DNA from: Nemertoderma westbladi
Taxonomy: Eukaryota > Animalia > Xenacoelomorpha
Direction: 5' to 3'
Length of the DNA: 64,000 nucleotides
Assembly: GCA_032718475.1 (NCBI GenBank)
Contig: JAUCBJ010004223.1
Span: 1 to 64,000, forward strand
Shown one piece after another: positions 1-38,489 of this stretch. Positions within the stretch are counted from its first letter, which is position 1; each line of letters begins with the position of its first letter. A program made the translations under genes and the position numbers. A model generated the notes under the pieces. The model saw nothing but the letters and a program-made list of their open reading frames with translations, was not told the origin of the DNA and ran no database searches.

Positions 1-1132
1 GGCTATAAGAAGACCCTCAGCCCCTAAGAAGGACAGTTTGATTGAGTTATAGCGGCACATATACTTGACCTCCCAACCAGTAAGCTGGCTATAAGAAGAC
101 CCTCAGCCCCTAAGAAGGACAGTTTGATTGAGTTATAGCGGCACATATTATACTTGACCTCTCAACCAGTAAGCTGGCTATAAGAAGACCGTCAGCCCCT
201 AAGAAGGACAGTTTGATTGAGTTATAGCGGCACATATTATACTTGACCTCTCAACCAGTAAGCTGGCTATAAGAAGACCGTCAGCCACTAAGAAGTACAG
301 TTTGACTGAGTTATAGCGGCACATATACTTGACCTCTCAACCAGCAAGCTGGCTATAAGAAGACCCTCAGCCCCTAAGAAGGACAGTTTGATTGAGTTAT
401 AGCGGCACATATACTTGACCTCCCAACCAGTAAGCTGGCTATAAGAAGACCCTCAGCCCCTAAGAAGGACAGTTTGATTGAGTTATAGCGGCACATATTA
501 TACTTGACCTCTCAACCAGTAAGCTGGCTATAAGAAGACCGTCAGCCACTAAGAAGTACAGTTTGACTGAGTTATAGCGGCACATATACTTGACCTCTCA
601 ACCAGCAAGCTGGCTATAAGAAGACCCTCAGCCCCTAAGAAGGACAGTTTGATTGAGTTATAGCGGCACATATACTTGACCTCCCAACCAGTAAGCTGGC
701 TATAAGAAGACCCTCAGCCCCTAAGAAGGACAGTTTGATTGAGTTATAGCGGCACATATTATACTTGACCTCTCAACCAGTAAGCTGGCTATAAGAAGAC
801 CGTCAGCCACTAAGAAGTACAGTTTGACTGAGTTATAGCGGCACATATACTTGACCTCCCAACCAGTAAGCTGGCTATAAGAAGACCCTCAGCCCCTAAG
901 AAGGACAGTTTGATTGAGTTATAGCGGCACATATTATACTTGACCTCTCAACCAGTAAGCTGGCTATAAGAAGACCCTCAGCCCCTAAGAAGGACAGTTT
1001 GATTGAGTTATAGCGGCACATATACTTGACCTCCCAACCAGTGAGCTGGCTATAAGAAGACCGTCAGCCCCTAAGAAGAACAGTTTGACTGAGTTATAGC
1101 GGCACATATACTTGACCTCTCAACCAGTAAGC
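1..1132. repeat. 86/89-bp tandem repeat, ~13 copies, truncated by the window edge (Arp2 intron 6)
   Basis: Unit ggctataagaagaccctcagcccctaagaaggacagtttgattgag...ccagtaagct recurs at 1, 87, 176 and onward, with a 3-bp indel variant. Confidence 0.95.
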
Positions 1133-1685
1133 CCTAACGGTCTTCTAATTAAATGATTGTACATGTACAGTTTGGTGAACTGCATCCAACGATATCATAA
1201 TCCGAATATCGGATGACAGGGTACCGGTGAAATCAGGCTTTACCAAAAAATGTCACGCCAATATCGATGTGCACAAACATACAGATAAACAAAAGATGTT
1301 TTTTGACAGAAATAAGCCCTAAACGGTCTTCTAATAAGCCCTAATGGCATGCTTGGGCCTGGCCGCTTCATTATTAGCTTAAAAATATTCTAGAACCTAA
1401 AACTCACACTCAATTTAGAAGTGTCGCCTTTTAGAACCCGCGCCAAATAAAGTTGTTTTATTTCCCGTTCTAAACGTGACGGTAAACCGGGATACATCGT
1501 AGATCCACCTGAAATTAATCAAATCAAATATAAAATTAATATTGATTTATTATAATATATTATAATTAATATCACTAATTATACAATACCATGACAGTAG
1601 ATTAACTACTTGCTATGACGAACAACGATTAATATATTTCAAGCCAATAAAACTATTTAAATATTTTTACTTCCAGCGTTTTGAC

Positions 1686-2715
1686 CAAGGTGTACTAAAT
1701 AACAGGTCATGCAGCGAGCGGATTGCTGAAATTAGCGGAGGCCGATCGTTTCCCTATTTATGACACTATTTTCATAATATTTCCTTATAAACTTCTTTTA
1801 TGCTACTTTTGTTAGGTGGATATGATGACTATAGGGTTCATAGCAATGTAATAAAATGTCTTTCTGGAATTTTTATCTTGTAGTTGCCAAGGTAACCGGT
1901 TGCAAAGTTCAAACTTTGAGCGCCTGTACTTCAAGACGACAAGGGATTCTGTTCTGGAGATTTGGTATATGAGTAAAGGGAATAAAAGTCGATCAAAATA
2001 TTTTACATTAAAATTTTTTTGCAATCCCGTTTCCATGGTGACGGGAATTACGATAATTTCCCATTATGACCCCCAGATAGAAATTGGGCTACTATTTACT
2101 ACTTATATAATTTTCAACAAACATGCCTGGTGATTGTCCTCAATTACTAATAATTGCTAACCGAAATGTAATATTCTGGAATGTCAAAATCATGCTATAA
2201 CAGTTTATTTGCAAATATTGACTTTTATAAATATGATTCACAATTGACGAATTATAAAATAAAATGTTGGCAATTTTAACTTATTATTTAGACTGACAAA
2301 CCGAATTAAAATGGTGTTTTATAGAATTGGTAGACAATTTTTAAAATTTTTCATTCTACTTATTTCCATGGCAACGGAAATGTAAACAAATTCAAATGTA
2401 AAATATTTTGATAGACTTTTATTTCCATCAATCACCTACCAAATCTCAAAGATAGAATCCATTGTCGCCTTGAAATACAGGCGCGCAAAATTTGAACTTT
2501 GCACCCGGTTACCTTGGAAACTATAAGATAAAAATTACAGAAATACATTTTATTACATTGCTATGAAAACTAGTCATCATATCCACCTAACCAAAGTAGC
2601 ACATAGAAGTTTCTAAGAAAATATTATGAAAATAGTGTCATAAATAGGGAAACGATCGGCCTCCGCTAATTTCAGCAATCCGCTCGCTGCATGACCTGTT
2701 ATTTAGTACACCTTG
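1686..2715. mobile_element. Non-autonomous DNA transposon (MITE) with long TIRs, probably P superfamily
   Basis: Termini CAAGGTGTACTAAATAACAGG.../...CCTGTTATTTAGTACACCTTG, with inverted similarity over ~350 bp. Perfect 8-bp TSD GTTTTGAC at 1678-1685 and 2716-2723. CANRG termini with an 8-bp TSD fit P elements. Confidence 0.85.
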
Positions 2716-2816
2716 GTTTTGACCCAACAAGAGATTTTTCATACAATATGTACGAAACTTTATTTTAACTCCTTCCATAGAAAAGGCGTTAAACAATCAA
2801 CTACTAAATGTAATTC

Positions 2817-3061: not shown

Positions 3062-6000
3062 TATGTAAGGTAAACAATCTCACAGCAACATATAACCAAG
3101 GCGTACTAAGGAACTCACCAGATAGAACTATGTAAGGTAAACAATCTCACAGCAACATATAACCAAGGCGTCCTAAGGAACTCACCAGATAGAACTATGT
3201 AAGGTAAACAATCTCACAGCAACATATAACCAAGGCGTACTAAGGAACTCACCAGATAGAACTATGTAAGGTAAACAATCTCACAGCAACATATAACCAA
3301 GGCGTCCTAAGGAACTCACCAGATAAAACTAAGTAAGGTAAACAATCTCACAGCAACATATAACCAAGGCGTCCTAAGGAACTCACCAGATAGAACTATG
3401 TAAGGTAAACAATCTCACAGCAACATATAACCAAGGCGTCCTAAGGAACTCACCAGATAGAACTATGTAAGGTAAACAATCTCACAGCAACATATAACCA
3501 AGGCGTCCTAAGGAACTCACCAGATAGAACTATGTAAGGTAAACAATCTCACAGCAACATATAACCAAGGCGTCCTAAGGAACTCACCAGATAGAACTAT
3601 GTAAGGTAAACAATCTCACAGCAACATATAACCAAGGCGTCCTAAGGAACTCACCAGATAGAACTATGTAAGGTAAACAATCTCACAGCAACATATAACC
3701 AAGGCGTCCTAAGGAACTCACCAGATAGAACTATGTAAGGTAAACAATCTCACAGCAACATATAACCAAGGCGTCCTAAGGAACTCACCAGATAGAACTA
3801 TGTAAGGTAAACAATCTCACAGCAACATATAACCAAGGCGTCCTAAGGAACTCACCAGATAGAACTATGTAAGGTAAACAATCTCACAGCAACATATAAC
3901 CAAGGCGTCCTAAGGAACTCACCAGATAGAACTATGTAAGGTAAACAATCTCACAGCAACATATAACCAAGGCGTCCTAAGGAACTCACCAGATAGAACT
4001 ATGTAAGGTAAACAATCTCACAGCAACATATAACCAAGGCGTACTAAGGAACTCACCAGATAGAACTATGTAAGGTAAACAATCTCACAGCAACATATAA
4101 CCAAGGCGTCCTAAGGAACTCACCAGATAGAACTATGTAAGGTAAACAATCTCACAGCAACATATAACCAAGGCGTCCTAAGGAACTCACCAGATAGAAC
4201 TATGTAAGGTAAACAATCTCACAGCAACATAAAACCAAGGCGTCCTAAGGAACTCACCAGATAGAACTACGTAAGGTAAACAATCTCACAGCAACATATA
4301 ACCAAGGCGTCCTAAGGAACTCACCAGATAGAACTATGTAAGGTAAACAATCTCACAGCAACATATAACCAAGGCGTCCTAAGGAACTCACCAGATAGAA
4401 CTATGTAAGGTAAACAATCTCACAGCAACATATAACCAAGGCGTCCTAAGGAACTCACCAGATAGAACTATGTAAGGTAAACAATCTCACAGCAACATAT
4501 AACCAAGGCGTCCTAAGGAACTCACCAGATAGAACTATGTAAGGTAAACAATCTCACAGCAACATAAAACCAAGGCGTCCTAAGGAACTCACCAGATAGA
4601 ACTACGTAAGGTAAACAATCTCACAGCAACATATAACCAAGGCGTCCTAAGGAACTCACCAGATAGAACTATGTAAGGTAAACAATCTCACAGCAACATA
4701 TAACCAAGGCGTCCTAAGGAACTCACCAGATAGAACTATGTAAGGTAAACAATCTCACAGCAACATAAAACCAAGGCGTCCTAAGGAACTCACCAGATAG
4801 AACTACGTAAGGTAAACAATCTCACAGCAACATATAACCAAGGCGTCCTAAGGAACTCACCAGATAGAACTATGTAAGGTAAACAATCTCACAGCAACAT
4901 ATAACCAAGGCGTCCTAAGGAACTCACCAGATAGAACTATGTAAGGTAAACAATCTCACAGCAACATATAACCAAGGCGTCCTAAGGAACTCACCAGATA
5001 GAACTATGTAAGGTAAACAATCTCACAGCAACATATAACCAAGGCGTCCTAAGGAACTCACCAGATAGAACTATGTAAGGTAAACAATCTCACAGCAACA
5101 TAAAACCAAGGCGTCCTAAGGAACTCACCAGATAGAACTACGTAAGGTAAACAATCTCACAGCAACATATAACCAAGGCGTCCTAAGGAACTCACCAGAT
5201 AGAACTATGTAAGGTAAACAATCTCACAGCAACATATAACCAAGGCGTCCTAAGGAACTCACCAGATAGAACTATGTAAGGTAAACAATCTCACAGCAAC
5301 ATATAACCAAGGCGTCCTAAGGAACTCACCAGATAGAACTACGTAAGGTAAACAATCTCACAGCAACATATAACCAAGGCGTCCTAAGGAACTCACCAGA
5401 TAGAACTATGTAAGGTAAACAATCTCACAGCAACATATAACCAAGGCGTCCTAAGGAACTCACCAGATAGAACTATGTAAGGTAAACAATCTCACAGCAA
5501 CATATAACCAAGGCGTCCTAAGGAACTCACCAGATAGAACTATGTAAGGTAAACAATCTCACAGCAACATATAACCAAGGCGTCCTAAGGAACTCACCAG
5601 ATAGAACTATGTAAGGTAAACAATCTCACAGCAACATATAACCAAGGCGTCCTAAGGAACTCACCAGATAGAACTATGTAAGGTAAACAATCTCACAGCA
5701 ACATATAACCAAGGCGTCCTAAGGAACTCACCAGATAGAACTATGTAAGGTAAACAATCTCACAGCAACATATAACCAAGGCGTCCTAAGGAACTCACCA
5801 GATAGAACTATGTAAGGTAAACAATCTCACAGCAACATATAACCAAGGCGTCCTAAGGAACTCACCAGATAGAACTATGTAAGGTAAACAATCTCACAGC
5901 AACATATAACCAAGGCGTCCTAAGGAACTCACCAGATAGAACTATGTAAGGTAAACAATCTCACAGCAACATATAACCAAGGCGTCCTAAGGAACTCACC

Positions 6001-9000
6001 AGATAGAACTATGTAAGGTAAACAATCTCACAGCAACATATAACCAAGGCGTCCTAAGGAACTCACCAGATAGAACTATGTAAGGTAAACAATCTCACAG
6101 CAACATATAACCAAGGCGTCCTAAGGAACTCACCAGATAGAACTATGTAAGGTAAACAATCTCACAGCAACATATAACCAAGGCGTCCTAAGGAACTCAC
6201 CAGATAGAACTATGTAAGGTAAACAATCTCACAGCAACATATAACCAAGGCGTCCTAAGGAACTCACCAGATAGAACTATGTAAGGTAAACAATCTCACA
6301 GCAACATATAACCAAGGCGTCCTAAGGAACTCACCAGATAGAACTATGTAAGGTAAACAATCTCACAGCAACATATAACCAAGGCGTCCTAAGGAACTCA
6401 CCAGATAGAACTATGTAAGGTAAACAATCTCACAGCAACATATAACCAAGGCGTCCTAAGGAACTCACCAGATAGAACTATGTAAGGTAAACAATCTCAC
6501 AGCAACATATAACCAAGGCGTCCTAAGGAACTCACCAGATAGAACTATGTAAGGTAAACAATCTCACAGCAACATATAACCAAGGCGTCCTAAGGAACTC
6601 ACCAGATAGAACTATGTAAGGTAAACAATCTCACAGCAACATATAACCAAGGCGTCCTAAGGAACTCACCAGATAGAACTATGTAAGGTAAACAATCTCA
6701 CAGCAACATATAACCAAGGCGTCCTAAGGAACTCACCAGATAGAACTATGTAAGGTAAACAATCTCACAGCAACATATAACCAAGGCGTCCTAAGGAACT
6801 CACCAGATAGAACTATGTAAGGTAAACAATCTCACAGCAACATATAACCAAGGCGTCCTAAGGAACTCACCAGATAGAACTATGTAAGGTAAACAATCTC
6901 ACAGCAACATATAACCAAGGCGTCCTAAGGAACTCACCAGATAGAACTATGTAAGGTAAACAATCTCACAGCAACATATAACCAAGGCGTCCTAAGGAAC
7001 TCACCAGATAGAACTATGTAAGGTAAACAATCTCACAGCAACATATAACCAAGGCGTCCTAAGGAACTCACCAGATAGAACTATGTAAGGTAAACAATCT
7101 CACAGCAACATATAACCAAGGCGTCCTAAGGAACTCACCAGATAGAACTATGTAAGGTAAACAATCTCACAGCAACATATAACCAAGGCGTCCTAAGGAA
7201 CTCACCAGATAGAACTATGTAAGGTAAACAATCTCACAGCAACATATAACCAAGGCGTCCTAAGGAACTCACCAGATAGAACTATGTAAGGTAAACAATC
7301 TCACAGCAACATATAACCAAGGCGTCCTAAGGAACTCACCAGATAGAACTATGTAAGGTAAACAATCTCACAGCAACATATAACCAAGGCGTCCTAAGGA
7401 ACTCACCAGATAGAACTATGTAAGGTAAACAATCTCACAGCAACATATAACCAAGGCGTCCTAAGGAACTCACCAGATAGAACTATGTAAGGTAAACAAT
7501 CTCACAGCAACATATAACCAAGGCGTCCTAAGGAACTCACCAGATAGAACTATGTAAGGTAAACAATCTCACAGCAACATATAACCAAGGCGTCCTAAGG
7601 AACTCACCAGATAGAACTATGTAAGGTAAACAATCTCACAGCAACATATAACCAAGGCGTCCTAAGGAACTCACCAGATAGAACTATGTAAGGTAAACAA
7701 TCTCACAGCAACATATAACCAAGGCGTCCTAAGGAACTCACCAGATAGAACTATGTAAGGTAAACAATCTCACAGCAACATATAACCAAGGCGTCCTAAG
7801 GAACTCACCAGATAGAACTATGTAAGGTAAACAATCTCACAGCAACATATAACCAAGGCGTCCTAAGGAACTCACCAGATAGAACTATGTAAGGTAAACA
7901 ATCTCACAGCAACATATAACCAAGGCGTCCTAAGGAACTCACCAGATAGAACTATGTAAGGTAAACAATCTCACAGCAACATATAACCAAGGCGTCCTAA
8001 GGAACTCACCAGATAGAACTATGTAAGGTAAACAATCTCACAGCAACATATAACCAAGGCGTCCTAAGGAACTCACCAGATAGAACTATGTAAGGTAAAC
8101 AATCTCACAGCAACATATAACCAAGGCGTCCTAAGGAACTCACCAGATAGAACTATGTAAGGTAAACAATCTCACAGCAACATATAACCAAGGCGTCCTA
8201 AGGAACTCACCAGATAGAACTATGTAAGGTAAACAATCTCACAGCAACATATAACCAAGGCGTCCTAAGGAACTCACCAGATAGAACTATGTAAGGTAAA
8301 CAATCTCACAGCAACATATAACCAAGGCGTCCTAAGGAACTCACCAGATAGAACTATGTAAGGTAAACAATCTCACAGCAACATATAACCAAGGCGTCCT
8401 AAGGAACTCACCAGATAGAACTATGTAAGGTAAACAATCTCACAGCAACATATAACCAAGGCGTCCTAAGGAACTCACCAGATAGAACTATGTAAGGTAA
8501 ACAATCTCACAGCAACATATAACCAAGGCGTCCTAAGGAACTCACCAGATAGAACTATGTAAGGTAAACAATCTCACAGCAACATATAACCAAGGCGTCC
8601 TAAGGAACTCACCAGATAGAACTATGTAAGGTAAACAATCTCACAGCAACATATAACCAAGGCGTCCTAAGGAACTCACCAGATAGAACTATGTAAGGTA
8701 AACAATCTCACAGCAACATATAACCAAGGCGTCCTAAGGAACTCACCAGATAGAACTATGTAAGGTAAACAATCTCACAGCAACATATAACCAAGGCGTC
8801 CTAAGGAACTCACCAGATAGAACTATGTAAGGTAAACAATCTCACAGCAACATATAACCAAGGCGTCCTAAGGAACTCACCAGATAGAACTATGTAAGGT
8901 AAACAATCTCACAGCAACATATAACCAAGGCGTCCTAAGGAACTCACCAGATAGAACTATGTAAGGTAAACAATCTCACAGCAACATATAACCAAGGCGT

Positions 9001-10034
9001 CCTAAGGAACTCACCAGATAGAACTACGTAAGGTAAACAATCTCACAGCAACATATAACCAAGGCGTCCTAAGGAACTCACCAGATAGAACTATGTAAGG
9101 TAAACAATCTCACAGCAACATATAACCAAGGCGTCCTAAGGAACTCACCAGATAGAACTATGTAAGGTAAACAATCTCACAGCAACATATAACCAAGGCG
9201 TCCTAAGGAACTCACCAGATAGAACTATGTAAGGTAAACAATCTCACAGCAACATATAACCAAGGCGTCCTAAGGAACTCACCAGATAAAACTAAGTAAG
9301 GTAAACAATCTCACAGCAACATATAACCAAGGCGTCCTAAGGAACTCACCAGATAGAACTATGTAAGGTAAACAATCTCACAGCAACATATAACCAAGGC
9401 GTCCTAAGGAACTCACAAGATAGAACTATGTAATGTAAACAATCTCACAGCAACATATAACCAAGGCGTCCTAAGGAACTCACCAGATAGAACTATGTAA
9501 GGTAAACAATCTCACAGCAACATATAACCAAGGCGTACTAAGGAACTCACCAGATAGAACTATGTAAGGTAAACAATCTCACAGCAACATATAACCAAGG
9601 CGTCCTAAGGAACTCACCAGATAGAACTATGTAAGGTAAACAATCTCACAGCAACATATAACCAAGGCGTCCTAAGGAACTCACCAGATAGAACTATGTA
9701 AGGTAAACAATCTCACAGCAACATATAACCAAGGCGTCCTAAGGAACTCACCAGATAGAACTATGTAAGGTAAACAATCTCACAGCAACATATAACCAAG
9801 GCGTACTAAGGAACTCACCAGATAGAACTATGTAAGGTAAACAATCTCACAGCAACATAAAACCAAGGCGTCCTAAGGAACTCACCAGATAGAACTACGT
9901 AAGGTAAACAATCTCACAGCAACATATAACCAAGGCGTCCTAAGGAACTCACCAGATAGAACTACGTAAGGTAAACAATCTCACAGCAACATATAACCAA
10001 GGCGTCCTAAGGAACTCACCAGATAGAACTATGT
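3062..10034. repeat. 67-bp satellite, ~104 copies; unit = last 15 nt of Arp2 exon 6 plus first 52 nt of intron 6
   Basis: Minus-strand unit ACATAGTTCTATCTG|gtgagttccttaggacgccttggttatatgttgctgtgagattgtttacctt. Period 67, and the terminal copy is the real exon junction. Confidence 0.97.
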
Positions 10035-10197
10035 GTTTATAGAAATCAGCTCGGATATCCATATCAGCCGACTGAATGGTTGTGAATAACAACTCTGCAA
10101 TCCCAAATCCCTCAACGTTTATTAGATGCGGCTGAAATAGCGCTTCTGGGGCTTCGAACCTCTCACCCCCAATCTTAATAACACGCCCGTCAGGAAG
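10020..10197 (-). CDS. ACTR2: Arp2 exon 6, [59 protein letters not shown](G); gene continues beyond window start
   Basis: Manual translation. Acceptor ctcttttag, 178 nt, donor GTGAGT, phase 1. The expected next exon (GSTMYPG...) was not found in 1-10019. Confidence 0.94.
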
Positions 10198-10330
10198 CTA
10201 AAAGAGATTCAATACAATAAACAATATCGAACGATATTCATTAAATACTCAATAGTTAAATACATTAGGTGAAACCAATGGTACAGACTCAGAAAGAAAG
10301 TGATCAAACGAGTTAGTCATTGGGAAGTTG

Positions 10331-10502
10331 TAATAACTATTTACATACTTGTGGTGTGTAAAGTAGCACTTTACAGTGTGATGATCCGAGTGGCTTTGTT
10401 ACACGAACGAACGTAGTGAGTGAGTGAAAATAATGCCACGAGGATCAGAACACTGTAAAGTACTTTGCAAAAAGTATGTATGTAGTTTTATTCCAAAATT
10501 TT
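10331..10502. mobile_element. Palindromic MITE-like element
   Basis: actttacagtgtgatgatccgagtggc is inverted against gccacgaggatcagaacactgtaaagt, and tacatactt against aagtatgta. Loop gaacgaacgtagtgagtgagtg. Confidence 0.55.
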
Positions 10503-10526
10503 AACATTACGAAATGATTGTATATA

Positions 10527-11411
10527 CAGGGTGTCCCAATAAATTTGATCCACTTTTAAAGTTTAATAACTCATCACAATGTACATCAATCGCAGACTTC
10601 TAGGTGTCATACGAAAGCTAATAGGTGAACTTAGAATTTGGGAGTTTTTCTGGTTGTGGTAGTTGCTACTTGCTATGGAAACTAATCAGATAAGTTTACA
10701 TTAAAACTGTATCTTGAGTGTTAGATGTGAAATTTATTCGCGGAAATAAATAAATAATAACTTGTTTCCCTGTGAATAAACAACTATTCTAGAATGCCAT
10801 TTGTAGTTACTAGAGTAGCCAATATCTCTGTAATGTTTACAGACGAACAACAAGTTTTCATTGTTAAAACCTACTACCGAAAGCAGTCTTCCATGCTTAC
10901 AGAGTTAGAATTTTCTTACCAGTTCGTACCGGTAAGTGTTGGGCGTCCTACGAGATCAAACATATCGCGTCTTGTAAGAAAATTTGAGAGTGAAAAATCT
11001 TTGTTATGCAAATCAGGTACTCAAAGGCCTTCAATTAGCCTAGATAAAGTTTCAGTTATTAAAACGGAGCAGGTGGATTGGCAGAGACGGTCCTATACGA
11101 TGGCTAACTCGTTCTGCAGGGTCCTATACGATGGGTAACTCGTTCTGCAGGGTCCTATACGATGGCTAACTCGTTCTGCAGGGTCCTATACGATGGCTAA
11201 CTCGTTCTGCAGGGTCCTATACGGTGGCTAACTCGTTCTGCAGGGTCCTATACGATGGCTAACTCGTTCTGCAGGGTCCTATACGATGGCTAACTCGTTC
11301 TGCAGGGTCCTATACGATGGCTAACTCGTTCTGCAGGGTCCTATACGATGGCTAACTCGTTCTCCCGGTTTACTATTTATGGGGCCATACGATGGCTAAC
11401 TCGTTCTCCCG
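10527..11411 (+). mobile_element. Internally deleted Tc1/mariner transposon fragment (DUF4817-like HTH N-terminus plus RWIGRxGPxxWxxRSPDL remnant)
   Basis: Left end TA|CAGGGTGTCCC. ORF 10794-11138 reads FTDEQQVFIVKTYY...PTRSNISRLVRKFE. Another frame from 11071 reads RWIGRDGPIRWLTRS. No right TIR seen. Confidence 0.75.
11089..11363. repeat. 31-bp tandem repeat, ~9 copies, derived from the mariner coding sequence
   Basis: Unit gggtcctatacgatggctaactcgttctgca. Confidence 0.92.
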
Positions 11412-13797
11412 AGAATTTCTTACTTTGCAGAGGTACGTGTTTATCGAGGATGGACCTGAGAGAAAAGTCATACATTTCCACTAACTCGTCTAAGGTGTAG
11501 TTTGGAGTACTAAACAGGTTGCTGGTACTTAAGTCATTCCAATAATCATCTACATTAATTGACTTCAGTTTTCGGTATAGAGTGCTATTTTGGGTGTTAG
11601 TTGGTTTCTTAATATTGATGTTAAATGAAACCGTGAAGTGATCTGATAAACCGATGTCACTGGTAGATACGTTTTTTAATTAGATGTTCATTTTCAGTAT
11701 GGGTGAGAACCAAGTCCAAGGTATTCCACGATCGGTGGGGGGGTCCACTAACAAACTGTTGTAGACCAAAACACTTGCACATATCTAGAAAATCGGACGC
11801 CAGTCTGTCGTCATTCTTGTTAACATGAAAGTTAAAATCTCCAATTAAAATCAGTTTCCCCGACGTGATGGATATTCGTTCTAAAAAATCAGCAAACTTA
11901 TCAATAAAGAGCCGTGCAGTTAGACCATTTCGACTGGAAGGGCATGTGCGATAAATTATGAATAGGCGCACTAATGTGCCACAACATAGTATTGTTGTCT
12001 CTATAGATACTCAAAGGACGGATAGCTAATTTTGTATTCGATGTAGTTATTGACTTTCAGGCGAGTATTTATAACACAAGCGACACCACCATCGCAACTT
12101 GCAGTTGCTGAAGGAACTCTGGGTTTATTATGCAAACGGTAATTGGAATCTTTGGGACATAAAATGCTCGCAGGTACAATATCTGCAACTGTACCAGTAA
12201 ACAAGTTTCAATTATTGCAACGACATCGAAATCCATCTCCGAAAAATAATCATAAAAGTAGGAAGCCTTGTTATTTATGGATTGTGCATTAATTATACAG
12301 ATACTTATTGAAGCCATTCTTATCCAAACATGACAAAATAGGAGCGGATAAATGTTGAGCTGATCCAGATTCTGAAACTTCAGGAGGAACTGGAATCTGA
12401 ACTGAAATGGAACTGAAATCTAGTCAGTCCATACATTCAGTATTGTCGTCGCGAGGTTCTATGCGTCGGAAAACTCGAGATCGTACCTCGCCGGATGTAG
12501 TTCGAGAATCCAGAAACTCATCTTCCTGGATCTGTGCATCTTTGCTACTAGTACTAGTGTCTTTGTGCGCATTTGAGGAGTCCACCACCAGCGCTCGTTC
12601 AACCACTTCGTTACGACTTATTACCCACTTTTTGCGAGGTTCTTTGGAACGCTTCTTTTTCAGAGCCATTCTAAGCTCCTACTGTTCGTGGGCCTGTGCG
12701 CGAGTATAGTCAGGATTTATGTATACTGCCATAAATTTCACTGAGAACTGTAGATTCTTGGCAGCTTTTAAGAGTTCGAGCCGCTTATCTGGATTTAGAG
12801 TTACTACTATTTTCTGTCCAGGGTTACTCGAACGAGATTCAGGAACCGTTGGACCTATTCTTTTAACACCTACAATCCCTTCAGATAAATTAACACCAAC
12901 TTCTGCAGCAATGTCAACTACAGTCGCTTTATCATTAGTTGTGTCTGGTACGAAACTCCTGGAAATTACCAGGTTATCTATCCTCTCAGATTGAAGGCGA
13001 GTTTCTTTCTGTACTTCCCATGTAATTGCTGCTACTACCGGTACAGGAATATTCCAGGATGTGTTCCTCTCTCCTCAAACGATTCGCCCTCACTTAACCA
13101 CCGAGGACCACGAAGAACCAACTTCCTGAGCCTCGGCGGGTGAATCATCCTCTGAAGATAGGGCAGTTATCGATTCTTTAATAGTCACAACTTCATCAAC
13201 TATATTCTTAGCATCTTCTTTAACTTCATTGATTAAATCATGGAAGTCTGAGCGAACTGATTTAAGGGATGTGGTAACAGACCAACAATCGATTCTTTGT
13301 TGTGTTGTTGCGAGAGCGAGATTTTGTCAATTTCAGCTTGTAGACGAGACTCAACGTCCGATATTTCATCCGCCAACCTCGATATATGTCTGGCGGAACA
13401 CTGTCCACAATAAAACTCTACTTCAGTGAAGTCAATGGACGATTTAGCAATACAGATAATGGCGGTATTGTATTTCTTACCAGAGCAGCTAACCTTGATT
13501 TCTTCGGAGCTAGAATTGGCCACTTGTTGTGCTGCCACTTTCGCCTGCTTCGTCATCGAGTTCTTAGTCACCGGATCTCTTTTAGACCCGAGGCTTGTAA
13601 GCGTTCTGTTCACGCTATCTTTACTAAACTTTTCAAACTTATTGTTAATTGAACAAAAACCCAATTCGTTAATTAAAAGCTACGCAGCAAAGTATTCCAC
13701 CAAGCAACAGTACGATCGGTATATGGTACGTTACCAGTACGTGTGCTTCCGCCACCATATAGCACTAGACGTTGTATGCAATCAGTACTTATACTTA
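11412..13797 (-). mobile_element. Degenerate CR1/L2-group LINE: ORF1 remnants and AP-endonuclease domain, RT portion missing
   Basis: APE motifs split by frameshifts: ICIINAQSINNK...VAIIET (12069-12317), LILIGDFNFH and NTLDLVLT (11657-11971), then SDH. Upstream ORF1-like pieces include a Cys-containing segment (FYCGQC) and a coiled-coil-like stretch. Confidence 0.8.
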
Positions 13798-19230: not shown

Positions 19231-22200
19231 TATACTTAGAGTATAGGATTCCACAAGGATTGTGGTCTCAATCAACTGTTATACTTACAGTATAGGATTC
19301 CACAAGGACTGTGGTCTCAATCAACTGTTATACTTACAGTATAGGATTCCACAAGGACTGTGGTCTCAATCAACGGTTATACTTACAGTATAGGATTCCA
19401 CAAGGACTGTGGTCTCAATCAACTGTTATACTTACAGTATAGGATTCCACAAGGACTGTGGTCTCAATCAACTGTTTTACTTACAGTATAGGATTCCACA
19501 AGGACTGTGGTCTCAATCAACTGTTGTACTTACAGTATAGGATTCCACAAGGACTGTGGTCTCAATCAACTGTTATACTTACAGTATAGGATTCCACAAG
19601 GACTGTGGTCTCAATCAACGGTTATACTTACAGTATAGGATTCCACAAGGACTGTGGTCTCAATCAACTGTTATACTTACAGTATAGGATTCCACAAGGA
19701 CTGTGGTCTCAATCAACGGTTATACTTACAGTATAGGATTCCACAAGGACTGTGGTCTCAATCAACTGTTTTACTTACAGTATAGGATTCCACAAGGACT
19801 GTGGTCTCAATCAACTGTTATACTTACAGTATAGGATTCCACAAGGACTGTGGTCTCAATCAACGGTTATACTTACAGTATAGGATTCCACAAGGACTGT
19901 GGTCTCAATCAACTGTTATACTTACAGTATAGGATTCCACAAGGACTGTGGTCTCAATCAACTGTTATACTTACAGTATAGGATTCCACAAGGACTGTGG
20001 TCTCAATCAACTGTTATACTTACAGTATAGGATTCCACAAGGACTGTGGTCTCAATCAACTGTTATACTTACAGTATAGGATTCCACAAGGACTGTGGTC
20101 TCAATCAACTGTTATACTTACAGTATAGGATTCCACAAGGACTGTGGTCTCAATCAACTGTTATACTTACAGTATAGGATTCCACAAGGACTGTGGTCTC
20201 AATCAACTGTTATACTTACAGTATAGGATTCCACAAGGACTGTGGTCTCAATCAACTGTTATACTTACAGTATAGGATTCCACAAGGACTGTGGTCTCAA
20301 TCAACTGTTATACTTACAGTATAGGATTCCACAAGGACTGTGGTCTCAATCAACTGTTATACTTACAGTATAGGATTCCACAAGGACTGTGGTCTCAATC
20401 AACTGTTATACTTACAGTATAGGATTCCACAAGGACTGTGGTCTCAATCAACTGTTATACTTACAGTATAGGATTCCACAAGGACTGTGGTCTCAATCAA
20501 CTGTTATACTTACAGTATAGGATTCCACAAGGACTGTGGTCTCAATCAACTGTTATACTTACAGTATAGGATTCCACAAGGACTGTGGTCTCAATCAACT
20601 GTTATACTTACAGTATAGGATTCCACAAGGACTGTGGTCTCAATCAACTGTTATACTTACAGTATAGGATTCCACAAGGACTGTGGTCTCAATCAACTGT
20701 TATACTTACAGTATAGGATTCCACAAGGACTGTGGTCTCAATCAACTGTTATACTTACAGTATAGGATTCCACAAGGACTGTGGTCTCAATCAACTGTTA
20801 TACTTACAGTATAGGATTCCACAAGGACTGTGGTCTCAATCAACTGTTATACTTACAGTATAGGATTCCACAAGGACTGTGGTCTCAATCAACTGTTATA
20901 CTTACAGTATAGGATTCCACAAGGACTGTGGTCTCAATCAACTGTTATACTTACAGTATAGGATTCCACAAGGACTGTGGTCTCAATCAACTGTTATACT
21001 TACAGTATAGGATTCCACAAGGACTGTGGTCTCAATCAACTGTTATACTTACAGTATAGGATTCCACAAGGACTGTGGTCTCAATCAACTGTTATACTTA
21101 CAGTATAGGATTCCACAAGGACTGTGGTCTCAATCAACTGTTATACTTACAGTATAGGATTCCACAAGGACTGTGGTCTCAATCAACTGTTATACTTACA
21201 GTATAGGATTCCACAAGGACTGTGGTCTCAATCAACTGTTATACTTACAGTATAGGATTCCACAAGGACTGTGGTCTCAATCAACTGTTATACTTACAGT
21301 ATAGGATTCCACAAGGACTGTGGTCTCAATCAACTGTTATACTTACAGTATAGGATTCCACAAGGACTGTGGTCTCAATCAACTGTTATACTTACAGTAT
21401 AGGATTCCACAAGGACTGTGGTCTCAATCAACTGTTATACTTACAGTATAGGATTCCACAAGGACTGTGGTCTCAATCAACTGTTATACTTACAGTATAG
21501 GATTCCACAAGGACTGTGGTCTCAATCAACTGTTATACTTACAGTATAGGATTCCACAAGGACTGTGGTCTCAATCAACTGTTATACTTACAGTATAGGA
21601 TTCCACAAGGACTGTGGTCTCAATCAACTGTTATACTTACAGTATAGGATTCCACAAGGACTGTGGTCTCAATCAACTGTTATACTTACAGTATAGGATT
21701 CCACAAGGACTGTGGTCTCAATCAACTGTTATACTTACAGTATAGGATTCCACAAGGACTGTGGTCTCAATCAACTGTTATACTTACAGTATAGGATTCC
21801 ACAAGGACTGTGGTCTCAATCAACTGTTATACTTACAGTATAGGATTCCACAAGGACTGTGGTCTCAATCAACTGTTATACTTACAGTATAGGATTCCAC
21901 AAGGACTGTGGTCTCAATCAACTGTTATACTTACAGTATAGGATTCCACAAGGACTGTGGTCTCAATCAACTGTTATACTTACAGTATAGGATTCCACAA
22001 GGACTGTGGTCTCAATCAACTGTTATACTTACAGTATAGGATTCCACAAGGACTGTGGTCTCAATCAACTGTTATACTTACAGTATAGGATTCCACAAGG
22101 ACTGTGGTCTCAATCAACTGTTATACTTACAGTATAGGATTCCACAAGGACTGTGGTCTCAATCAACTGTTATACTTACAGTATAGGATTCCACAAGGAC

Positions 22201-22651
22201 TGTGGTCTCAATCAACTGTTATACTTACAGTATAGGATTCCACAAGGACTGTGGTCTCAATCAACTGTTATACTTACAGTATAGGATTCCACAAGGACTG
22301 TGGTCTCAATCAACTGTTATACTTACAGTATAGGATTCCACAAGGACTGTGGTCTCAATCAACTGTTATACTTACAGTATAGGATTCCACAAGGACTGTG
22401 GTCTCAATCAACTGTTATACTTACAGTATAGGATTCCACAAGGACTGTGGTCTCAATCAACTGTTATACTTACAGTATAGGATTCCACAAGGACTGTGGT
22501 CTCAATCAACTGTTATACTTACAGTATAGGATTCCACAAGGACTGTGGTCTCAATCAACTGTTATACTTACAGTATAGGATTCCACAAGGACTGTGGTCT
22601 CAATCAACTGTTATACTTACAGTATAGGATTCCACAAGGACTGTGGTCTCA
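19231..22651. repeat. 49-bp satellite, ~70 copies; unit = last 31 nt of Arp2 exon 5 plus first 18 nt of intron 5
   Basis: Minus-strand unit TGAGACCACAGTCCTTGTGGAATCCTATACT|gtaagtataacagttgat. The terminal copy is the real exon 5 junction. Confidence 0.97.
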
Positions 22652-22770
22652 GTAGATAATTGCTGCTCTTGTTCGATATCGTAACCAACGTAACAAAGTT
22701 TCTCTTTGATCATCCGAACTGTCTCGAAATCCGCTGAGTGGTTGAAAGCGTAACCACGGAGAAGTAATAG
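22621..22770 (-). CDS. ACTR2: Arp2 exon 5, [50 protein letters not shown]
   Basis: Lies within ORF 22600-22848. 150 nt, acceptor tttatttcag, donor GTAAGT. Arp2-diagnostic [15 protein letters not shown]. Confidence 0.95.
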
Positions 22771-22883
22771 CTGAAATAAAAACCGAAAAATACCATAAAA
22801 ATATATCGTCAGATCGCTCAGATTCCTCAAGAATTGCCTATCAATCATATAAATTTATATCTGTTTCAGATTCTAAGTGATGT

Positions 22884-23112
22884 GTTTGTAAAAGCAACAT
22901 ATGTTTGTAAAAGCAGCATCTGTTTGTAAAAGCAACATCTGTTTGTAAAAGCAACATCTGTTTGTAAAAAAAAAACTCTGTTTGTAAAAGCAACATCTGT
23001 TTGTAAAAGCAACATATGTTTGTAAAAGCAACATATGTTTGTAAATCTGTTTGTAAAAGCAACATTTCTTTGTAAAAGCAACATCTGTTTGTAAAAGCAA
23101 CATCTGTTTGTA
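22884..23112. repeat. 19-bp minisatellite, ~12 copies, near the intron 4 acceptor
   Basis: Unit aaagcaacatctgtttgta. Confidence 0.9.
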
Positions 23113-27380: not shown

Positions 27381-27468
27381 AGAACCGAGGACTACAGCAT
27401 TCCCTTTAATCCTGTTTATATCGCAGAACCGAGGACTACAGCATTCCCTTTAATCCTGTTTATATCGC
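27381..27468. repeat. Perfect 44-bp tandem duplication ~65 nt into intron 4
   Basis: agaaccgaggactacagcattccctttaatcctgtttatatcgc occurs twice. Confidence 0.9.
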
Positions 27469-27533: not shown

Positions 27534-27743
27534 CTTGATAAGATACTTGGTAATATCGCGGCCGGCAATGTCCAACCGTTTAGTAAGATGGGGTAACGAG
27601 AATCCGTCATACACGGGACATATGTGGGTGACGCCATCCCCTGAGTCAACAACCACACCTGTTAGTAAACCTTGGGCGTAGAGTGTCATTACAGCCTGAA
27701 TGGCAACGTAGACCCCGGCGAATTCAAACTGCTCCAACATAAT
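27534..27743 (-). CDS. ACTR2: Arp2 exon 4, [18 protein letters not shown]...[15 protein letters not shown]...[13 protein letters not shown]
   Basis: Overlaps ORF 27486-27740. Actin phosphate-2 loop DSGDGVTH, 210 nt, acceptor atttcag, donor GTGAGA. Confidence 0.95.
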
Positions 27744-27812: not shown

Positions 27813-30800
27813 GTTCCGATATACTAGATAGAAGGTTCCGATATACTAGATAGAAGGTTCCGATATACTAGATAGAAGGTTCCGATATACTAGATAGAAG
27901 GTTCCGATATACTAGATACAAGGTTCCGATATACTAGATAGAAGGTTCCGATATACTAGATAGAAGGTTCCGATATACTAGATAGAAGGTTTCGATATAC
28001 TAGATAGAAGGTTTCGATTTACTAGATAGAAGGTTCCGATATACTAGATAGAAGGTTCCGATATACTAGATAGAAGGTTCCGATATACTAGATAGAAGGT
28101 TCCGATATACTAGATAGAAGGTTCCGATATACTAGATAGAAGGTTCCGATATACTAGATAGAAGGTTCCGATATACTAGATAGAAGGTTCCGATATACTA
28201 GATAGAAGGTTCCGATATACTAGATAGAAGGTTCCGATATACTAGATAGAAGGTTCCGATATACTAGATAGAAGGTTCCGATATACTAGATAGAAGGTTC
28301 CGATATACTAGATAGAAGGTTCCGATATACTAGATAGAAGGTTCCGATATACTAGATAGAAGGTTCCGATATACTAGATAGAAGGTTCCGATATACTAGA
28401 TAGAAGGTTCCGATATACTAGATAGAAGGTTCCGATATACTAGATAGAAGGTTCCGATATACTAGATAGAAGGTTCCGATATACTAGATAGAAGGTTCCG
28501 ATATACTAGATAGAAGGTTCCGATATACTAGATAGAAGGTTCCGATATACTAGATAGAAGGTTCCGATATACTAGATAGAAGGTTCCGATATACTAGATA
28601 GAAGGTTCCGATATACTAGATAGAAGGTTCCGATATACTAGATAGAAGGTTCCGATATACTAGATAGAAGGTTCCGATATACTAGATAGAAGGTTCCGAT
28701 ATACTAGATAGAAGGTTCCGATATACTAGATAGAAGGTTCCGATATACTAGATAGAAGGTTCCGATATACTAGATAGAAGGTTCCGATATACTAGATAGA
28801 AGGTTCCGATATACTAGATAGAAGGTTCCGATATACTAGATAGAAGGTTCCGATATACTAGATAGAAGGTTCCGATATACTAGATAGAAGGTTCCGATAT
28901 ACTAGATAGAAGGTTCCGATATACTAGATAGAAGGTTCCGATATACTAGATAGAAGGTTCCGATATACTAGATAGAAGGTTCCGATATACTAGATAGAAG
29001 GTTCCGATATACTAGATAGAAGGTTCCGATATACTAGATAGAAGGTTCCGATATACTAGATAGAAGGTTCCGATATACTAGATAGAAGGTTCCGATATAC
29101 TAGATAGAAGGTTCCGATATACTAGATAGAAGGTTCCGATATACTAGATAGAAGGTTCCGATATACTAGATAGAAGGTTCCGATATACTAGATAGAAGGT
29201 TCCGATATACTAGATAGAAGGTTCCGATATACTAGATAGAAGGTTCCGATATACTAGATAGAAGGTTCCGATATACTAGATAGAAGGTTCCGATATACTA
29301 GATAGAAGGTTCCGATATACTAGATAGAAGGTTCCGATATACTAGATAGAAGGTTCCGATATACTAGATAGAAGGTTCCGATATACTAGATAGAAGGTTC
29401 CGATATACTAGATAGAAGGTTCCGATATACTAGATAGAAGGTTCCGATATACTAGATACAAGGTTCCGATATACTAGATAGAAGGTTCCGATATACTAGA
29501 TAGAAGGTTCCGATATACTAGATAGAAGGTTCCGATATACTAGATAGAAGGTTCCGATATACTAGATAGAAGGTTCCGATATACTAGATAGAAGGTTCCG
29601 ATATACTAGATAGAAGGTTCCGATATACTAGATAGAAGGTTCCGATATACTAGATAGAAGGTTCCGATATACTAGATAGAAGGTTCCGATATACTAGATA
29701 GAAGGTTCCGATATACTAGATAGAAGGTTCCGATATACTAGATACAAGGTTCCGATATACTAGATAGAAGGTTCCGATATACTAGATAGAAGGTTCCGAT
29801 ATACTAGATAGAAGGTTCCGATATACTAGATAGAAGGTTCCGATATACTAGATAGAAGGTTCCGATATACTAGATAGAAGGTTCCGATATACTAGATAGA
29901 AGGTTCCGATATACTAGATAGAAGGTTCCGATATACTAGATAGAAGGTTCCGATATACTAGATAGAAGGTTCCGATATACTAGATAGAAGGTTCCGATAT
30001 ACTAGATAGAAGGTTCCGATATACTAGATAGAAGGTTCCGATATACTAGATAGAAGGTTCCGATATACTAGATAGAAGGTTCCGATATACTAGATAGAAG
30101 GTTCCGATATACTAGATAGAAGGTTCCGATATACTAGATAGAAGGTTCCGATATACTAGATAGAAGGTTCCGATATACTAGATAGAAGGTTCCGATATAC
30201 TAGATAGAAGGTTCCGATATACTAGATAGAAGGTTCCGATATACTAGATAGAAGGTTCCGATATACTAGATACAAGGTTCCGATATACTAGATAGAAGGT
30301 TCCGATATACTAGATAGAAGGTTCCGATATACTAGATAGAAGGTTCCGATATACTAGATAGAAGGTTCCGATATACTAGATAGAAGGTTCCGATATACTA
30401 GATAGAAGGTTCCGATATACTAGATAGAAGGTTCCGATATACTAGATAGAAGGTTCCGATATACTAGATAGAAGGTTCCGATATACTAGATAGAAGGTTC
30501 CGATATACTAGATAGAAGGTTCCGATATACTAGATACAAGGTTCCGATATACTAGATAGAAGGTTCCGATATACTAGATAGAAGGTTCCGATATACTAGA
30601 TAGAAGGTTCCGATATACTAGATAGAAGGTTCCGATATACTAGATAGAAGGTTCCGATATACTAGATAGAAGGTTCCGATATACTAGATAGAAGGTTCCG
30701 ATATACTAGATAGAAGGTTCCGATATACTAGATAGAAGGTTCCGATATACTAGATAGAAGGTTCCGATATACTAGATAGAAGGTTCCGATATACTAGATA

Positions 30801-31714
30801 GAAGGTTCCGATATACTAGATACAAGGTTCCGATATACTAGATAGAAGGTTCCGATATACTAGATAGAAGGTTCCGATATACTAGAAAGAAGGTTCCGAT
30901 ATACTAGATACTAGAAGGTTCCGAAATACTAGATAGAAGGTTGCGATATACTAGATAGAAGGTTCCGATATACTAGATAGAAGGTTGCGATATACTAGAT
31001 AGAAGGTTCCGATATACTAGATAGAAGGTTCCGATATACTAGATAGAAGGTTCCGATATACTAGATACAAGGTTCCGATATACTAGATAGAAGGTTCCGA
31101 TATACTAGATAGAAGGTTCCGATATACTAGATAGAAGGTTCCGATATACTAGATAGAAGGTTCCGATATACTAGATAGAAGGTTCCGATATACTAGATAG
31201 AAGGTTCCGATATACTAGATAGAAGGTTCCGATATACTAGATAGAAGGTTCCGATATACTAGATACAAGGTTCCGATATACTAGATAGAAGGTTGCGATA
31301 TACTAGATACAAGGTTCCGATATACTAGATAGAAGGTTGCGATATACTAGAAAGAAGGTTCCGATATACTAGATAGAAGGTTCCGATATACTAGATAGAA
31401 GGTTCCGATATACTAGATAGAAGGTTCCGATATACTAGATAGAAGGTTCCGATATACTAGATAGAAGGTTCCGATATACTAGATACAAGGTTCCGATATA
31501 CTAGATAGAAGGTTGCGATATACTAGATACAAGGTTCCGATATACTAGATAGAAGGTTCCGATATACTAGATAGAAGGTTCCGATATACTAGATAGAAGG
31601 TTCCGATATACTAGATAGGAGGTTCCGATATACTAGATAGAAGGTTGCGATATACTAGATAGGAGGTTCCGATATACTAGATAGAAGGTTCCGATATACT
31701 AGATAGAAGGTTCC
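27813..31714. repeat. 22-bp satellite, ~177 copies, filling ~98% of Arp2 intron 3
   Basis: Unit gttccgatatactagatagaag. Begins 6 nt after the exon 3 donor; the intron is 27744-31720. Confidence 0.97.
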
Positions 31715-31720
31715 ACTGAC

Positions 31721-31901
31721 CTCGAGCATCTTCATCCTATTAGTCAGCGGGTTCATTGGCGGCTCTGTCAGTAGGATTTTGCTGTCCTTGGGGTTTATGT
31801 TAAGTTTTGTTTCACCGAAGGTATATTCCCATAACAACATCTGGTCTTCCCAATTCCTAACCATGCCGTTCTCCATTGGATAACTCAGCTCCAATAACGA
31901 C
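31721..31901 (-). CDS. ACTR2: Arp2 exon 3, (R)[20 protein letters not shown]...[18 protein letters not shown]
   Basis: Lies within ORF 31655-31909. YPMENG and LTEPPMNP motifs, 181 nt, acceptor attag, donor GTCAGT. Confidence 0.94.
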
Positions 31902-33969: not shown

Positions 33970-34077
33970 CTACCCTACCTACAATAGTCCTAACTATACC
34001 CTACCCTACCTACAATAGTCCTAACTATACCCTACCCTACCTACAATAGTCCTAACTATACCCTCAACCCTACCTAC
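33970..34077. repeat. 31-bp tandem repeat, ~3 copies, just inside the intron 2 donor
   Basis: Unit taccctacctacaatagtcctaactataccc. Confidence 0.85.
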
Positions 34078-34103: not shown

Positions 34104-34249
34104 CTAACTTCACTGGCTTCGTCTCCAATCATAATGTCTTTAACTTCAATTCCACCGACTTTAGAAGTTGATCTAATAATTGGCCGACCCACAATCGACG
34201 GGAAAATATATTCTGGAAAATTACTTCCGGCAAATCCACATTTTACGAA
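34104..34249 (-). CDS. ACTR2: Arp2 exon 2, [48 protein letters not shown](R)
   Basis: Acceptor ttcttctttag, 146 nt, donor GTAGGT, phase 2. In frame with exons 1 and 3, with Arp2-like sequence. Confidence 0.94.
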
Positions 34250-34260: not shown

Positions 34261-34430
34261 CAATATTTATATATTTGATTATAATTATTTATTATATCAA
34301 TATTTATATATTGATTAGTATTATTTATTATATCAATATTAATATATTGATTAGTATTATTTATTATATCAATATTTATATTTGATTATAATTATTTATT
34401 ATATCAATATTAATATATTGATTATGATTA
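34261..34430. repeat. ~36-bp AT-rich tandem repeat, ~5 copies, adjoining the exon 2 acceptor
   Basis: caatatt(t/a)atatattgatta...ttatttattatat at 34261, 34298, 34334, 34370 and 34405. Confidence 0.85.
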
Positions 34431-38441: not shown

Positions 38442-38489
38442 CCCGGTTCCGTTGTCACAAACAATTACTTTTTTCCCGCTACTATCCAT
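38442..38489 (-). CDS. ACTR2: Arp2 (actin-related protein 2) coding exon 1, MDSSGKKVIVCDNGTG
   Basis: Manual translation matches the Arp2 N-terminus (VVCDNGTG motif). ATG at 38489, 48 nt, followed by donor GTAAGT. Not in the ORF track. Confidence 0.93.

What the first reader, a model, noticed from the sequence alone, without database searches (positions are those of the whole stretch)
3062..10034. ~104 copies of the exon 6 5' splice site; each unit reads as a 58-nt GT-AG intron plus a 9-nt in-frame microexon
Seen: on the gene strand the unit is gtgagt...gattgtttaccttacatag|TTCTATCTG|gtgagt. The duplication junction, with 5-bp microhomology ACATA, places a pyrimidine-rich tract before an exon-derived AG. 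The 9-nt piece keeps phase 1 and would add Val-Leu-Ser. The variants noticed (acgtag, acttag) keep the AG, and no GT loss was noticed. Read-through to a downstream donor gives a frameshift or a TGA. Inference: the spliceosome must pick the first of ~104 identical donors in an essential gene. The array could act as recursive-splicing stepping stones, a U1 snRNP sink, an NMD-coupled rheostat, or a snapshot of intron gain by tandem duplication.
Basis: partly seen in the sequence, partly recalled or inferred. Interest (0 to 1): 0.85.

Follow-up and report, generated by a model that had tools for sequence, protein, structure and literature searches.

The report
Splice-donor "mirage" minisatellite in Arp2
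In an animal's Arp2 gene, a 67-base piece holding the end of exon 6 and its splice signal is repeated 104 times into the next intron, yet the one spliced transcript that covers this junction uses only the first signal, so this is likely a harmless, unusually long case of a repeat type already known from lancelet and human genes.

Summary
The array is real: 104 donors at exact 67-nt spacing. Its entry and internal junctions are in DNA contigs of 2 of 2 DNA samples and its exit in one. Depth ratios of about 50 and 11 suggest variable length.

The functional readings are not supported. A spliced contig (run X4) joins exons 5, 6 and 7 with no +9 or +67 insert. Contigs drop rare forms, and that sample's array length is unknown. 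The unit AG scores like a random intronic AG (56th percentile of 895). Intact GT/AG needs no selection (chance 0.65). AG and GT lie 9 nt apart, so it is no ratchet point. The exon 5 donor carries a parallel 70 x 49-nt array whose pieces are too short to be introns.

This is a 'mirage' / F7-type splice-junction minisatellite (PMC3087553, PMC1557585), probably silent through first-donor choice. The scan noted the same kind in at least 8 other genes of this genome (unreviewed). What remains open is why arrays crowd at exon edges (5 of 13 within 35 nt; 0.66 expected).

The parts
3062..10034 (-). Minisatellite, 104.1 x 67 nt. Unit = last 15 nt of exon 6 + first 52 nt of intron 6; 83 of 103 complete units are identical
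   Evidence: junction contigs in X1, X2, X3
10020..10197 (-). Arp2 exon 6 (178 nt, ends in phase 1)
   Evidence: X4 contig matches with 0 differences
10014..10019 (-). Authentic exon 6 donor, the first of 104
   Evidence: X4 loose end before 10017 is the start of exon 7 (compared)
9962..10019 (-). First 58-nt GT..AG piece (candidate mini-intron; use not seen)
9953..9961 (-). First 9-nt exon-derived piece (candidate microexon, Val-Leu-Ser; inclusion not seen)
10030..10034 (-). Microhomology ACATA, exon copy
3062..3066 (-). Microhomology ACATA, intron copy at the array exit
   Evidence: exit junction in X3 contig
9417..9417 (-). Exon -1 G changed to T in unit 9, weakening donor 10
1408..1508 (-). 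Arp2 exon 7 (101 nt), the partner of the first donor
22621..22770 (-). Arp2 exon 5
   Evidence: joined to exon 6 in X4 and X5 contigs
19231..22651 (-). Second donor array, 69.8 x 49 nt (31 nt of exon 5 end + 18 nt starting GTAAGT); 69 intact donors, last copy has GT changed to CT
27813..31714 (-). 177 x 22-nt array starting 6 nt after the exon 3 donor; intron 3 is 75 nt without it; holds no donor copy
27534..27743 (-). Arp2 exon 4
31721..31901 (-). Arp2 exon 3
34104..34249 (-). Arp2 exon 2
38442..38489 (-). Arp2 exon 1, coding part

Best explanation
The array is a splice-junction ('mirage') minisatellite made of 104 copies of the Arp2 exon 6 end and donor, likely seeded by one microhomology-guided 67-bp duplication and likely expanded by ordinary repeat turnover, and it is likely near-silent because the spliceosome likely pairs the first donor with the real upstream acceptor and removes all other copies with intron 6. 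Shown: the anatomy, the 5-bp microhomology, presence in two DNA samples, and a canonical exon 5-6-7 transcript. Inferred: the seeding mechanism, slippage or unequal exchange as the engine, exon definition or 5'-to-3' first-donor choice as the reason for silence, and the lack of a selected function. The AG in each unit is likely an accident: it belongs to the Ile-Val codons of the copied exon end. A small leak to donors 2-3, as in human CBS and 6-16, is possible and would give stop-containing messages.
For: (1) X4 contig, 1292 nt, depth 4459: covers 10017-10197 with 0 differences; its loose ends are the exon 7 start and the exon 5 end; depth is 0 over 9925-10015 and 10198-10310. (2) DNA contigs hold the unit junction in X1 (depth 1524-1634 against 30.5 on unique flank), X2 (317 against 28.5) and X3 (310-380 against 14.1 for one haplotype); X3 also holds the exit junction. 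(3) Variants sit at the array edges: 54 identical units in a row, reached by 0 of 100,000 shuffles; this matches the turnover pattern described for mirages (PMC3087553, passages). (4) The unit AG scores at the 46th-67th percentile of 895 intronic decoy AGs; 5 of 6 real acceptors score at the 94th-99.6th in leave-one-out. (5) The exon 5 donor has a 70-copy array whose GT..AG pieces would be only 13, 22 or 29 nt, and one copy lost GT, so donor arrays arise here without a mini-intron layout. (6) 100 of 120 fetched homologs carry the motif, and none of the 100 has the three residues repeated. (7) Precedents with first-donor use: F7, LMNB2, PDGF (PMC1557585); lancelet globins, Adh3, TnC.
Against: The splicing evidence is one contig from one sample (S3) whose array length is unknown. 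X5, from array-bearing sample S2, stops at 10062, before the donor. Logan contigs drop rare variants, so no upper limit on leak can be given. X4 and X5 are labelled 'DNA?' by the tool; I call them RNA because they are spliced and lack intron cover. One real acceptor (exon 3) scores as poorly as the unit AG (61st against 67th percentile), and the matrix rests on 5-6 sites. All 103 AGs, all 104 GTs and the Val-Leu-Ser reading are intact, which fits selection as well as chance (chance 0.65 for 7 changes to miss the 4 positions). 104 copies is well above the 5-25 in the human cases, so their behaviour may not carry over.
Confidence: 0.8

Rival explanations
1. NMD-coupled rheostat: downstream donors are used often enough that copy number would tune Arp2 dosage through stop-containing messages.
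For: Donors 2-4 all give a premature stop. Copy number appears to differ about five-fold between samples. Human CBS and 6-16 use two pseudo-donors besides the real one (as cited in PMC1557585).
Against: No X4 contig holds the intronic part of the unit (depth 0 at 9925-10015). In the known cases only the nearest copies leak, so 11 or 104 copies should matter little. The +67 stop lies 7 nt from the next junction, a poor trigger under the 50-nt rule (recalled). No sign of selection.
Confidence: 0.07
2. Microexon ladder or intron gain in progress: some units would be spliced as 58-nt introns, adding Val-Leu-Ser once or several times.
For: GT..AG spacing is 58 nt, and intron 3 of this gene is 75 nt without its array, so short introns are plausible here. 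The insert is in frame in all variants. Mirages were proposed as intron-gain seeds (PMC3087553).
Against: Not seen in X4. The acceptor is decoy-like; no YTRAY branch motif is in the unit, and YTNAY occurs only at -11 and -6. The insert falls just before the conserved Gly-Gly motif, where none of 100 homologs has it; that this strand leads into the nucleotide site of the actin fold is recalled. Unlike the Rogers/Hellsten route, the peptide would change.
Confidence: 0.05
3. U1 snRNP sink or telescripting aid: the donors would bind U1 and either titrate it or shield the 8.5-kb intron from early cleavage.
For: 104 intact donors with fair U1 complementarity (sequence); predicted accessibility is like that of the real donor. 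Many genes of this genome carry such arrays (unreviewed notes).
Against: A few nascent transcripts give hundreds of sites against roughly 10^5-10^6 U1 per cell (recalled). The array itself creates most of the intron length. All 5 AATAAA of intron 6 lie downstream of the array, within 1.3 kb of exon 7. A sample with about 11 copies exists.
Confidence: 0.03
4. Recursive-splicing stepping stones: the intron would be removed unit by unit.
For: Regular alternation of acceptor-like and donor motifs in a long intron.
Against: Ratchet points are juxtaposed acceptor and donor (PMC8605326, search listing). Here each step would leave 9 nt in the message, and the X4 junction has none.
Confidence: 0.02
5. 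Assembly artefact: the array does not exist, or is only a few copies long.
For: 54 central units are identical. Depth ratios give about 50 copies per haplotype in X1 and about 11 in sample S2, both below 104. No laid record spans the array.
Against: Entry, internal and exit junctions are in independent DNA contigs at many-fold depth. Variant units recur in ordered patterns. About 50 per haplotype also fits one long and one short allele. The exact figure of 104 is unverified, but a long array is not in doubt.
Confidence: 0.03

Closest known systems
Lancelet 'mirage' minisatellites (globins BflGb6 and BflGb9, Adh3, troponin C, PGBD5). Seen: 6 passages of PMC3087553 and 4 passages of PMC3902484; the Adh3 and TnC papers only as cited there. 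Name first met in earlier scan notes.
   Same: Tandem copies of an exon-intron boundary; unit within the reported 10-160 bp; length differs between haplotypes; edge units escape homogenisation; normal splicing; proposed as seeds of intron gain.
   Different: About 104 copies (7 kb) against 2-7 in the passages read. The host is another animal, whose Arp2 is at most 82.5% identical to any fetched protein. Each unit also holds an exon-derived AG 9 nt before the donor.
Human F7 intron 7 37-bp VNTR, with CBS, 6-16 (IFI6), LMNB2 and PDGF. Seen: abstract, introduction and 12 passages of PMC1557585; the other four genes only as cited there.
   Same: First monomer spans the donor; identical pseudo-donors follow; the most upstream donor is used; length is polymorphic.
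   Different: 5-25 copies there, 104 here. Scanning was shown by mutagenesis for F7 and is untested here. CBS and 6-16 leak to two pseudo-donors; leak here is unknown.
Intron gain by tandem duplication (Rogers model; vertebrate ATP2A1). Seen: abstract and Discussion of PMC3265369.
   Same: A short intragenic duplication brings a GT and an AG into intron-like order.
   Different: There an exonic AGGT is duplicated and the peptide is unchanged. Here an existing donor is duplicated, use of the AG would add three codons, and no such splicing was seen.
Recursive splicing at ratchet points / RS-exons. Seen: search listing only (PMC8605326, bioRxiv 10.1101/006163).
   Same: Acceptor and donor motifs repeated inside a long intron.
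   Different: AG and GT are 9 nt apart, so no donor is regenerated at the junction and each step would add sequence.

Membership tests
Mirage / F7-type splice-junction minisatellite | Tandem unit spans an exon-intron boundary, so the splice site is reiterated in the intron | tested here: met
   15 nt exon + 52 nt intron, 104 donors
Mirage / F7-type splice-junction minisatellite | Minisatellite-sized unit (10-160 bp in PMC3087553) | tested here: met
   67 nt
Mirage / F7-type splice-junction minisatellite | Main mRNA is spliced at the site next to the exon | tested here: met
   One contig of one sample (X4), array length in that sample unknown
Mirage / F7-type splice-junction minisatellite | Length differs between alleles or individuals | tested here: inconclusive
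   Depth ratios 50-54 (X1) and 11 (X2) against 104 in the window; the tool warns that contig depth is no copy number
Mirage / F7-type splice-junction minisatellite | Concerted turnover with edge units left out | tested here: met
   20 of 103 units vary, none in units 16-69; 0 of 100,000 shuffles. Polishing of the assembly could mimic this.
Mirage / F7-type splice-junction minisatellite | Pseudo-donors work when the first is mutated (F7 scanning) | not testable with these tools
   Needs a minigene
Recursive splicing ratchet point | Acceptor AG directly followed by a donor, leaving no sequence behind | tested here: not met
   9 nt between AG and GT in 103 of 103 units
Recursive splicing ratchet point | Stepwise intermediates in nascent RNA or lariats | not testable with these tools
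   Only contigs were held for the 7 runs listed
Intron gain by tandem duplication (Rogers/Hellsten) | Duplicated exonic AGGT; new intron leaves the peptide unchanged | tested here: not met
   Use of the unit AG adds three codons
Microexon | Very short in-frame exon flanked by AG and GT | tested here: met
   9 nt, phase 1-1; sequence layout only
Microexon | Usable acceptor and branch point | tested here: inconclusive
   56th percentile of 895 decoys, no YTRAY; matrix from only 6 sites, and one real acceptor also scores low
Microexon | Inclusion in mRNA | tested here: inconclusive
   Absent from the main X4 contig; contigs drop rare forms

The most novel reading that the evidence does not exclude
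The exon-derived AG makes each unit a working 58-nt intron plus 9-nt microexon in some tissue, so a variable-length minisatellite sets a ladder of Arp2 messages (Val-Leu-Ser added n times, or stop-containing +67n forms): a copy-number-tuned splicing switch, and a living intermediate of intron gain from a mirage, in a genome where such arrays are seeded at exon edges.
Probability: 0.07. Interest if true: 0.75.

Novelty: new member of a known kind. Interest (0 to 1): 0.2.

Why it matters
As a single locus it is an oversized example of a described repeat type. It does extend the range over which first-donor choice appears to hold, from 5-25 identical donors in human genes to about 100, and it offers a natural test of scanning against exon definition. 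The more useful question is genome-wide. In this gene 5 of 13 arrays begin or end within 35 nt of an exon edge (0.66 expected), two of 7 donors are inside arrays, and earlier scan notes list at least 8 more genes. The origin of mirages is called unclear in PMC3087553, and this genome could settle whether a mutational process targets splice junctions or whether once-short introns explain the crowding. Four searches (listings only) showed no paper on genome-wide giant arrays of this type; the library lacks most subscription papers.

Tried and rejected
No whole genome is held, so no genome-wide count, paralog search or genome-trained splice model was possible. No RNA holder was listed as such. 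X6 ('RNA?', organism B) lay only on the high-copy element at 10333-10526 and says nothing on Arp2. In one search the tables were crowded by that element (365 loose ends and 3153 pieces not shown), so one search used a narrower stretch and listed all 10 records. X5 ends at 10062 and does not reach the donor. RNA structure as a silencer of the inner donors was rejected: three units fold no better than shuffles (z 0.50, 139 of 200 shuffles as good), and predicted accessibility of donor 1 and inner donors is alike in 2 of 3 window sizes. Selection on GT/AG was not detected, with little power (7 distinct changes). One search printed 23 nt for the distance from the +67 stop to the exon end by matching the wrong hexamer; one search corrected it to 7. 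Arp2 did not place the host in a phylum (best full-length identity 82.5% to both a brachiopod and a starfish protein); no tree was built. The second Arp2-like transcript in X4 (10 differences in 80 nt, depth 137) is not a splice variant; no matching DNA contig was laid in X1 or X3, so I did not count it as a paralog. A word search of earlier findings for the microexon idea and a 'near' search returned nothing. Supplements of the papers were not opened; the BflGb6 alignments there may show whether lancelet units also hold AG plus GT.

Full report
What was checked. The finding claims about 104 copies of the Arp2 exon 6 donor, each unit reading as a 58-nt intron and a 9-nt microexon. Tandem Repeats Finder gives 3062-10034, period 67, 104.1 copies, 99% matches. 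On the minus strand there are 104 GTGAGT donors and all 103 spacings are 67 nt; 83 of 103 complete units are identical. All 103 keep the AG at positions 57-58 and all 104 keep GT; unit 9 has lost the exon -1 G. The unit is the last 15 nt of exon 6 plus the first 52 nt of intron 6, bounded by the same 5-mer on both sides.

The gene. Seven coding exons lie on the minus strand between 38489 and 1408, with the rest beyond the window start. Joined in a script they give 337 residues without a stop, 82.5% identical at best to fetched animal Arp2 proteins. The host is an animal not closely represented among them; no genome is held. Tandem arrays make up 62% of the window and 53% of the gene span.

Is the array real? 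In DNA run X1 the unique contig over exon 6 (depth 30.5, 0 differences) stops at 10005, exactly 30 nt into the repeat, as expected where a graph enters a tandem array. Contigs over the unit junction have depth 1524 and 1634. In X2 the figures are 28.5 and 317. X3, the same sample as X2, gives 310-380 against 14.1 for one haplotype and also holds the exit junction. X1 may be the source of the assembly, so only sample S2 counts as independent. The ratios (50-54 and 11) are not copy numbers by the tool's own warning, but they suggest a variable-length repeat. The figure 104 itself is unverified.

What is spliced? X4 is labelled 'DNA?' but behaves as RNA: a 1292-nt contig at depth 4459 covers 10017-10197 with 0 differences, has no cover on either flanking intron, and runs on into the exon 5 end on one side and the exon 7 start on the other (exon 7). 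The three bases 10017-10019 match both the donor and the exon 7 start. There is no +9 or +67 insert. On the narrow stretch X4 laid 2 contigs. The second (depth 137, 10 differences in 80 nt) is another Arp2-like message with a canonical junction too. X5 shows the exon 5-6 junction only. Three limits apply: one sample, unknown array length in that sample, and contigs that drop rare forms.

Is the unit a mini-intron? Its acceptor ends ACATAG; 5 of 6 real acceptors have T at -5 and end TTTCAG, TTTTAG or CTTTAG. With a matrix from the real sites, the unit AG falls at the 46th-67th percentile of 895 intronic decoys (56th with all six), while 5 of 6 real sites reach the 94th-99.6th in leave-one-out; exon 3's reaches only the 61st. 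No YTRAY is in the unit. Seven distinct changes would miss the four GT/AG positions by chance with probability 0.65. The insert would repeat Val-Leu-Ser just before the conserved Gly-Gly motif; 100 of 120 fetched homologs have the motif and none of these has the repeat (the other 20 were not examined). In favour of the idea: a 58-nt intron is not too short in principle, since intron 3 is 75 nt without its array, and all variants keep the frame and the residues.

An internal control. The exon 5 donor lies in a 69.8 x 49-nt array (19231-22651), with 31 nt of exon end per unit and 69 intact donors; the last copy has lost GT. Its GT..AG pieces would be 13, 22 or 29 nt, and read-through stops in the first unit. 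So donor arrays form in this gene with or without a mini-intron layout. Arrays also crowd at exon edges: with arrays collapsed to points, 5 of 13 lie within 35 nt of an edge (0.66 expected, 4 of 20,000 random placements), 6 within 70 and 7 within 120. I merged overlapping repeat rows by hand and set the thresholds after seeing the data. Transposons were not removed, so introns that were once short would give the same pattern.

Mechanism. Most likely one 67-bp duplication, guided by the 5-bp microhomology, copied the exon end and donor; slippage or unequal exchange then expanded it. Variants sit at the edges and 54 central units are identical (0 of 100,000 shuffles), the turnover pattern reported for mirages. 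The first donor is the only one that follows a complete exon with a good upstream acceptor, so exon definition or first-come choice would select it and the rest leave with the intron. These steps are inferred. RNA folding does not explain the choice.

Comparison. PMC1557585 (abstract, introduction, 12 passages) describes the human F7 VNTR, whose first unit spans the exon 7 donor, and shows upstream-first selection. It cites LMNB2 and PDGF (first donor only) and CBS and 6-16 (two pseudo-donors also used), with 5-25 copies. PMC3087553 and PMC3902484 (passages) describe lancelet 'mirages' with normal splicing and length instability, and the first proposes them as seeds of intron gain. The array meets the mirage features I could test, and fails the defining features of ratchet points (listing only) and of peptide-neutral intron gain (PMC3265369 abstract and Discussion). 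Earlier scan notes on this genome (8 of 19 shown, unreviewed) report the same kind in CstF-77, PRPF8, RhoGEF, a channel gene, BRSK, beta-catenin, CUL3 and TFCP2, with up to about 840 copies. I took the name 'mirage' and two paper ids from them and checked the papers; I did not check their loci.

Verdict. Real, correctly described, and a new member of a known kind. It is longer than the published cases I read but not long for this genome. Silent array 0.80; rheostat 0.07; microexon or intron gain 0.05; U1 role 0.03; artefact 0.03; recursive splicing 0.02. Interest 0.2. The part worth pursuing is the genome-wide crowding of arrays at splice junctions.

Noticed in passing
window 19231-22651: A second donor array in the same gene: about 70 x 49 nt from the exon 5 end and donor. 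Nine bases of each unit have no match in the flank after the last copy, so the seed was not a plain duplication of today's sequence or the flank changed later.
   Followed up: partly
window 27813-31714: 177 x 22-nt array starts 6 nt after the exon 3 donor and fills all but 75 nt of intron 3, suggesting once-short introns inflated by repeats.
   Followed up: partly
window 33970-34077, 34261-34424, 27381-27468, 22883-23112: Small arrays 26 nt after exon 2, 11 nt before exon 2, 65 nt after exon 4 and 112 nt before exon 5.
   Followed up: partly
window 10019-10098, run X4 record 9: A second Arp2-like transcript (10 differences in 80 nt, 3% of the depth) with no matching DNA contig in X1 or X3; another organism in the sample or a paralog.
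   Followed up: partly
window 10330-10526: Short element with an internal inverted repeat and very high summed depth in DNA runs (up to about 630,000 against 28), likely a MITE family with many thousands of copies.
   Followed up: no
window 1684-2717: About 1-kb element with long nested inverted arms (113 nt at 98%, 207 nt at 86%) in intron 6, likely a foldback or MITE insertion.
   Followed up: no
window 32054-33868 (+), 35855-37786 (-), 16049-16903 (+), 18002-18568 (+), 11660-12010 (-): Reverse transcriptase, integrase and endonuclease frames of retroelements inside introns 2, 1 and 5.
   Followed up: no
window 11089-11411 and 13807-15670: Two arrays (31 nt and 44-47 nt units) share a core sequence, at the two ends of a LINE-like stretch in intron 5.
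   Followed up: no
window 1-1132 and 47338-64000: An 86-88-nt array with higher-order structure in intron 7, and a 29-nt satellite of over 570 copies upstream of the gene that runs off the window.
   Followed up: no
window 34104/31901 and 10020/1508: Introns 2 and 6 are followed by exons that start with GT, and exon 2 ends in AG (proto-splice-site context). From memory these two positions are not those of human ACTR2; not tested.
   Followed up: no
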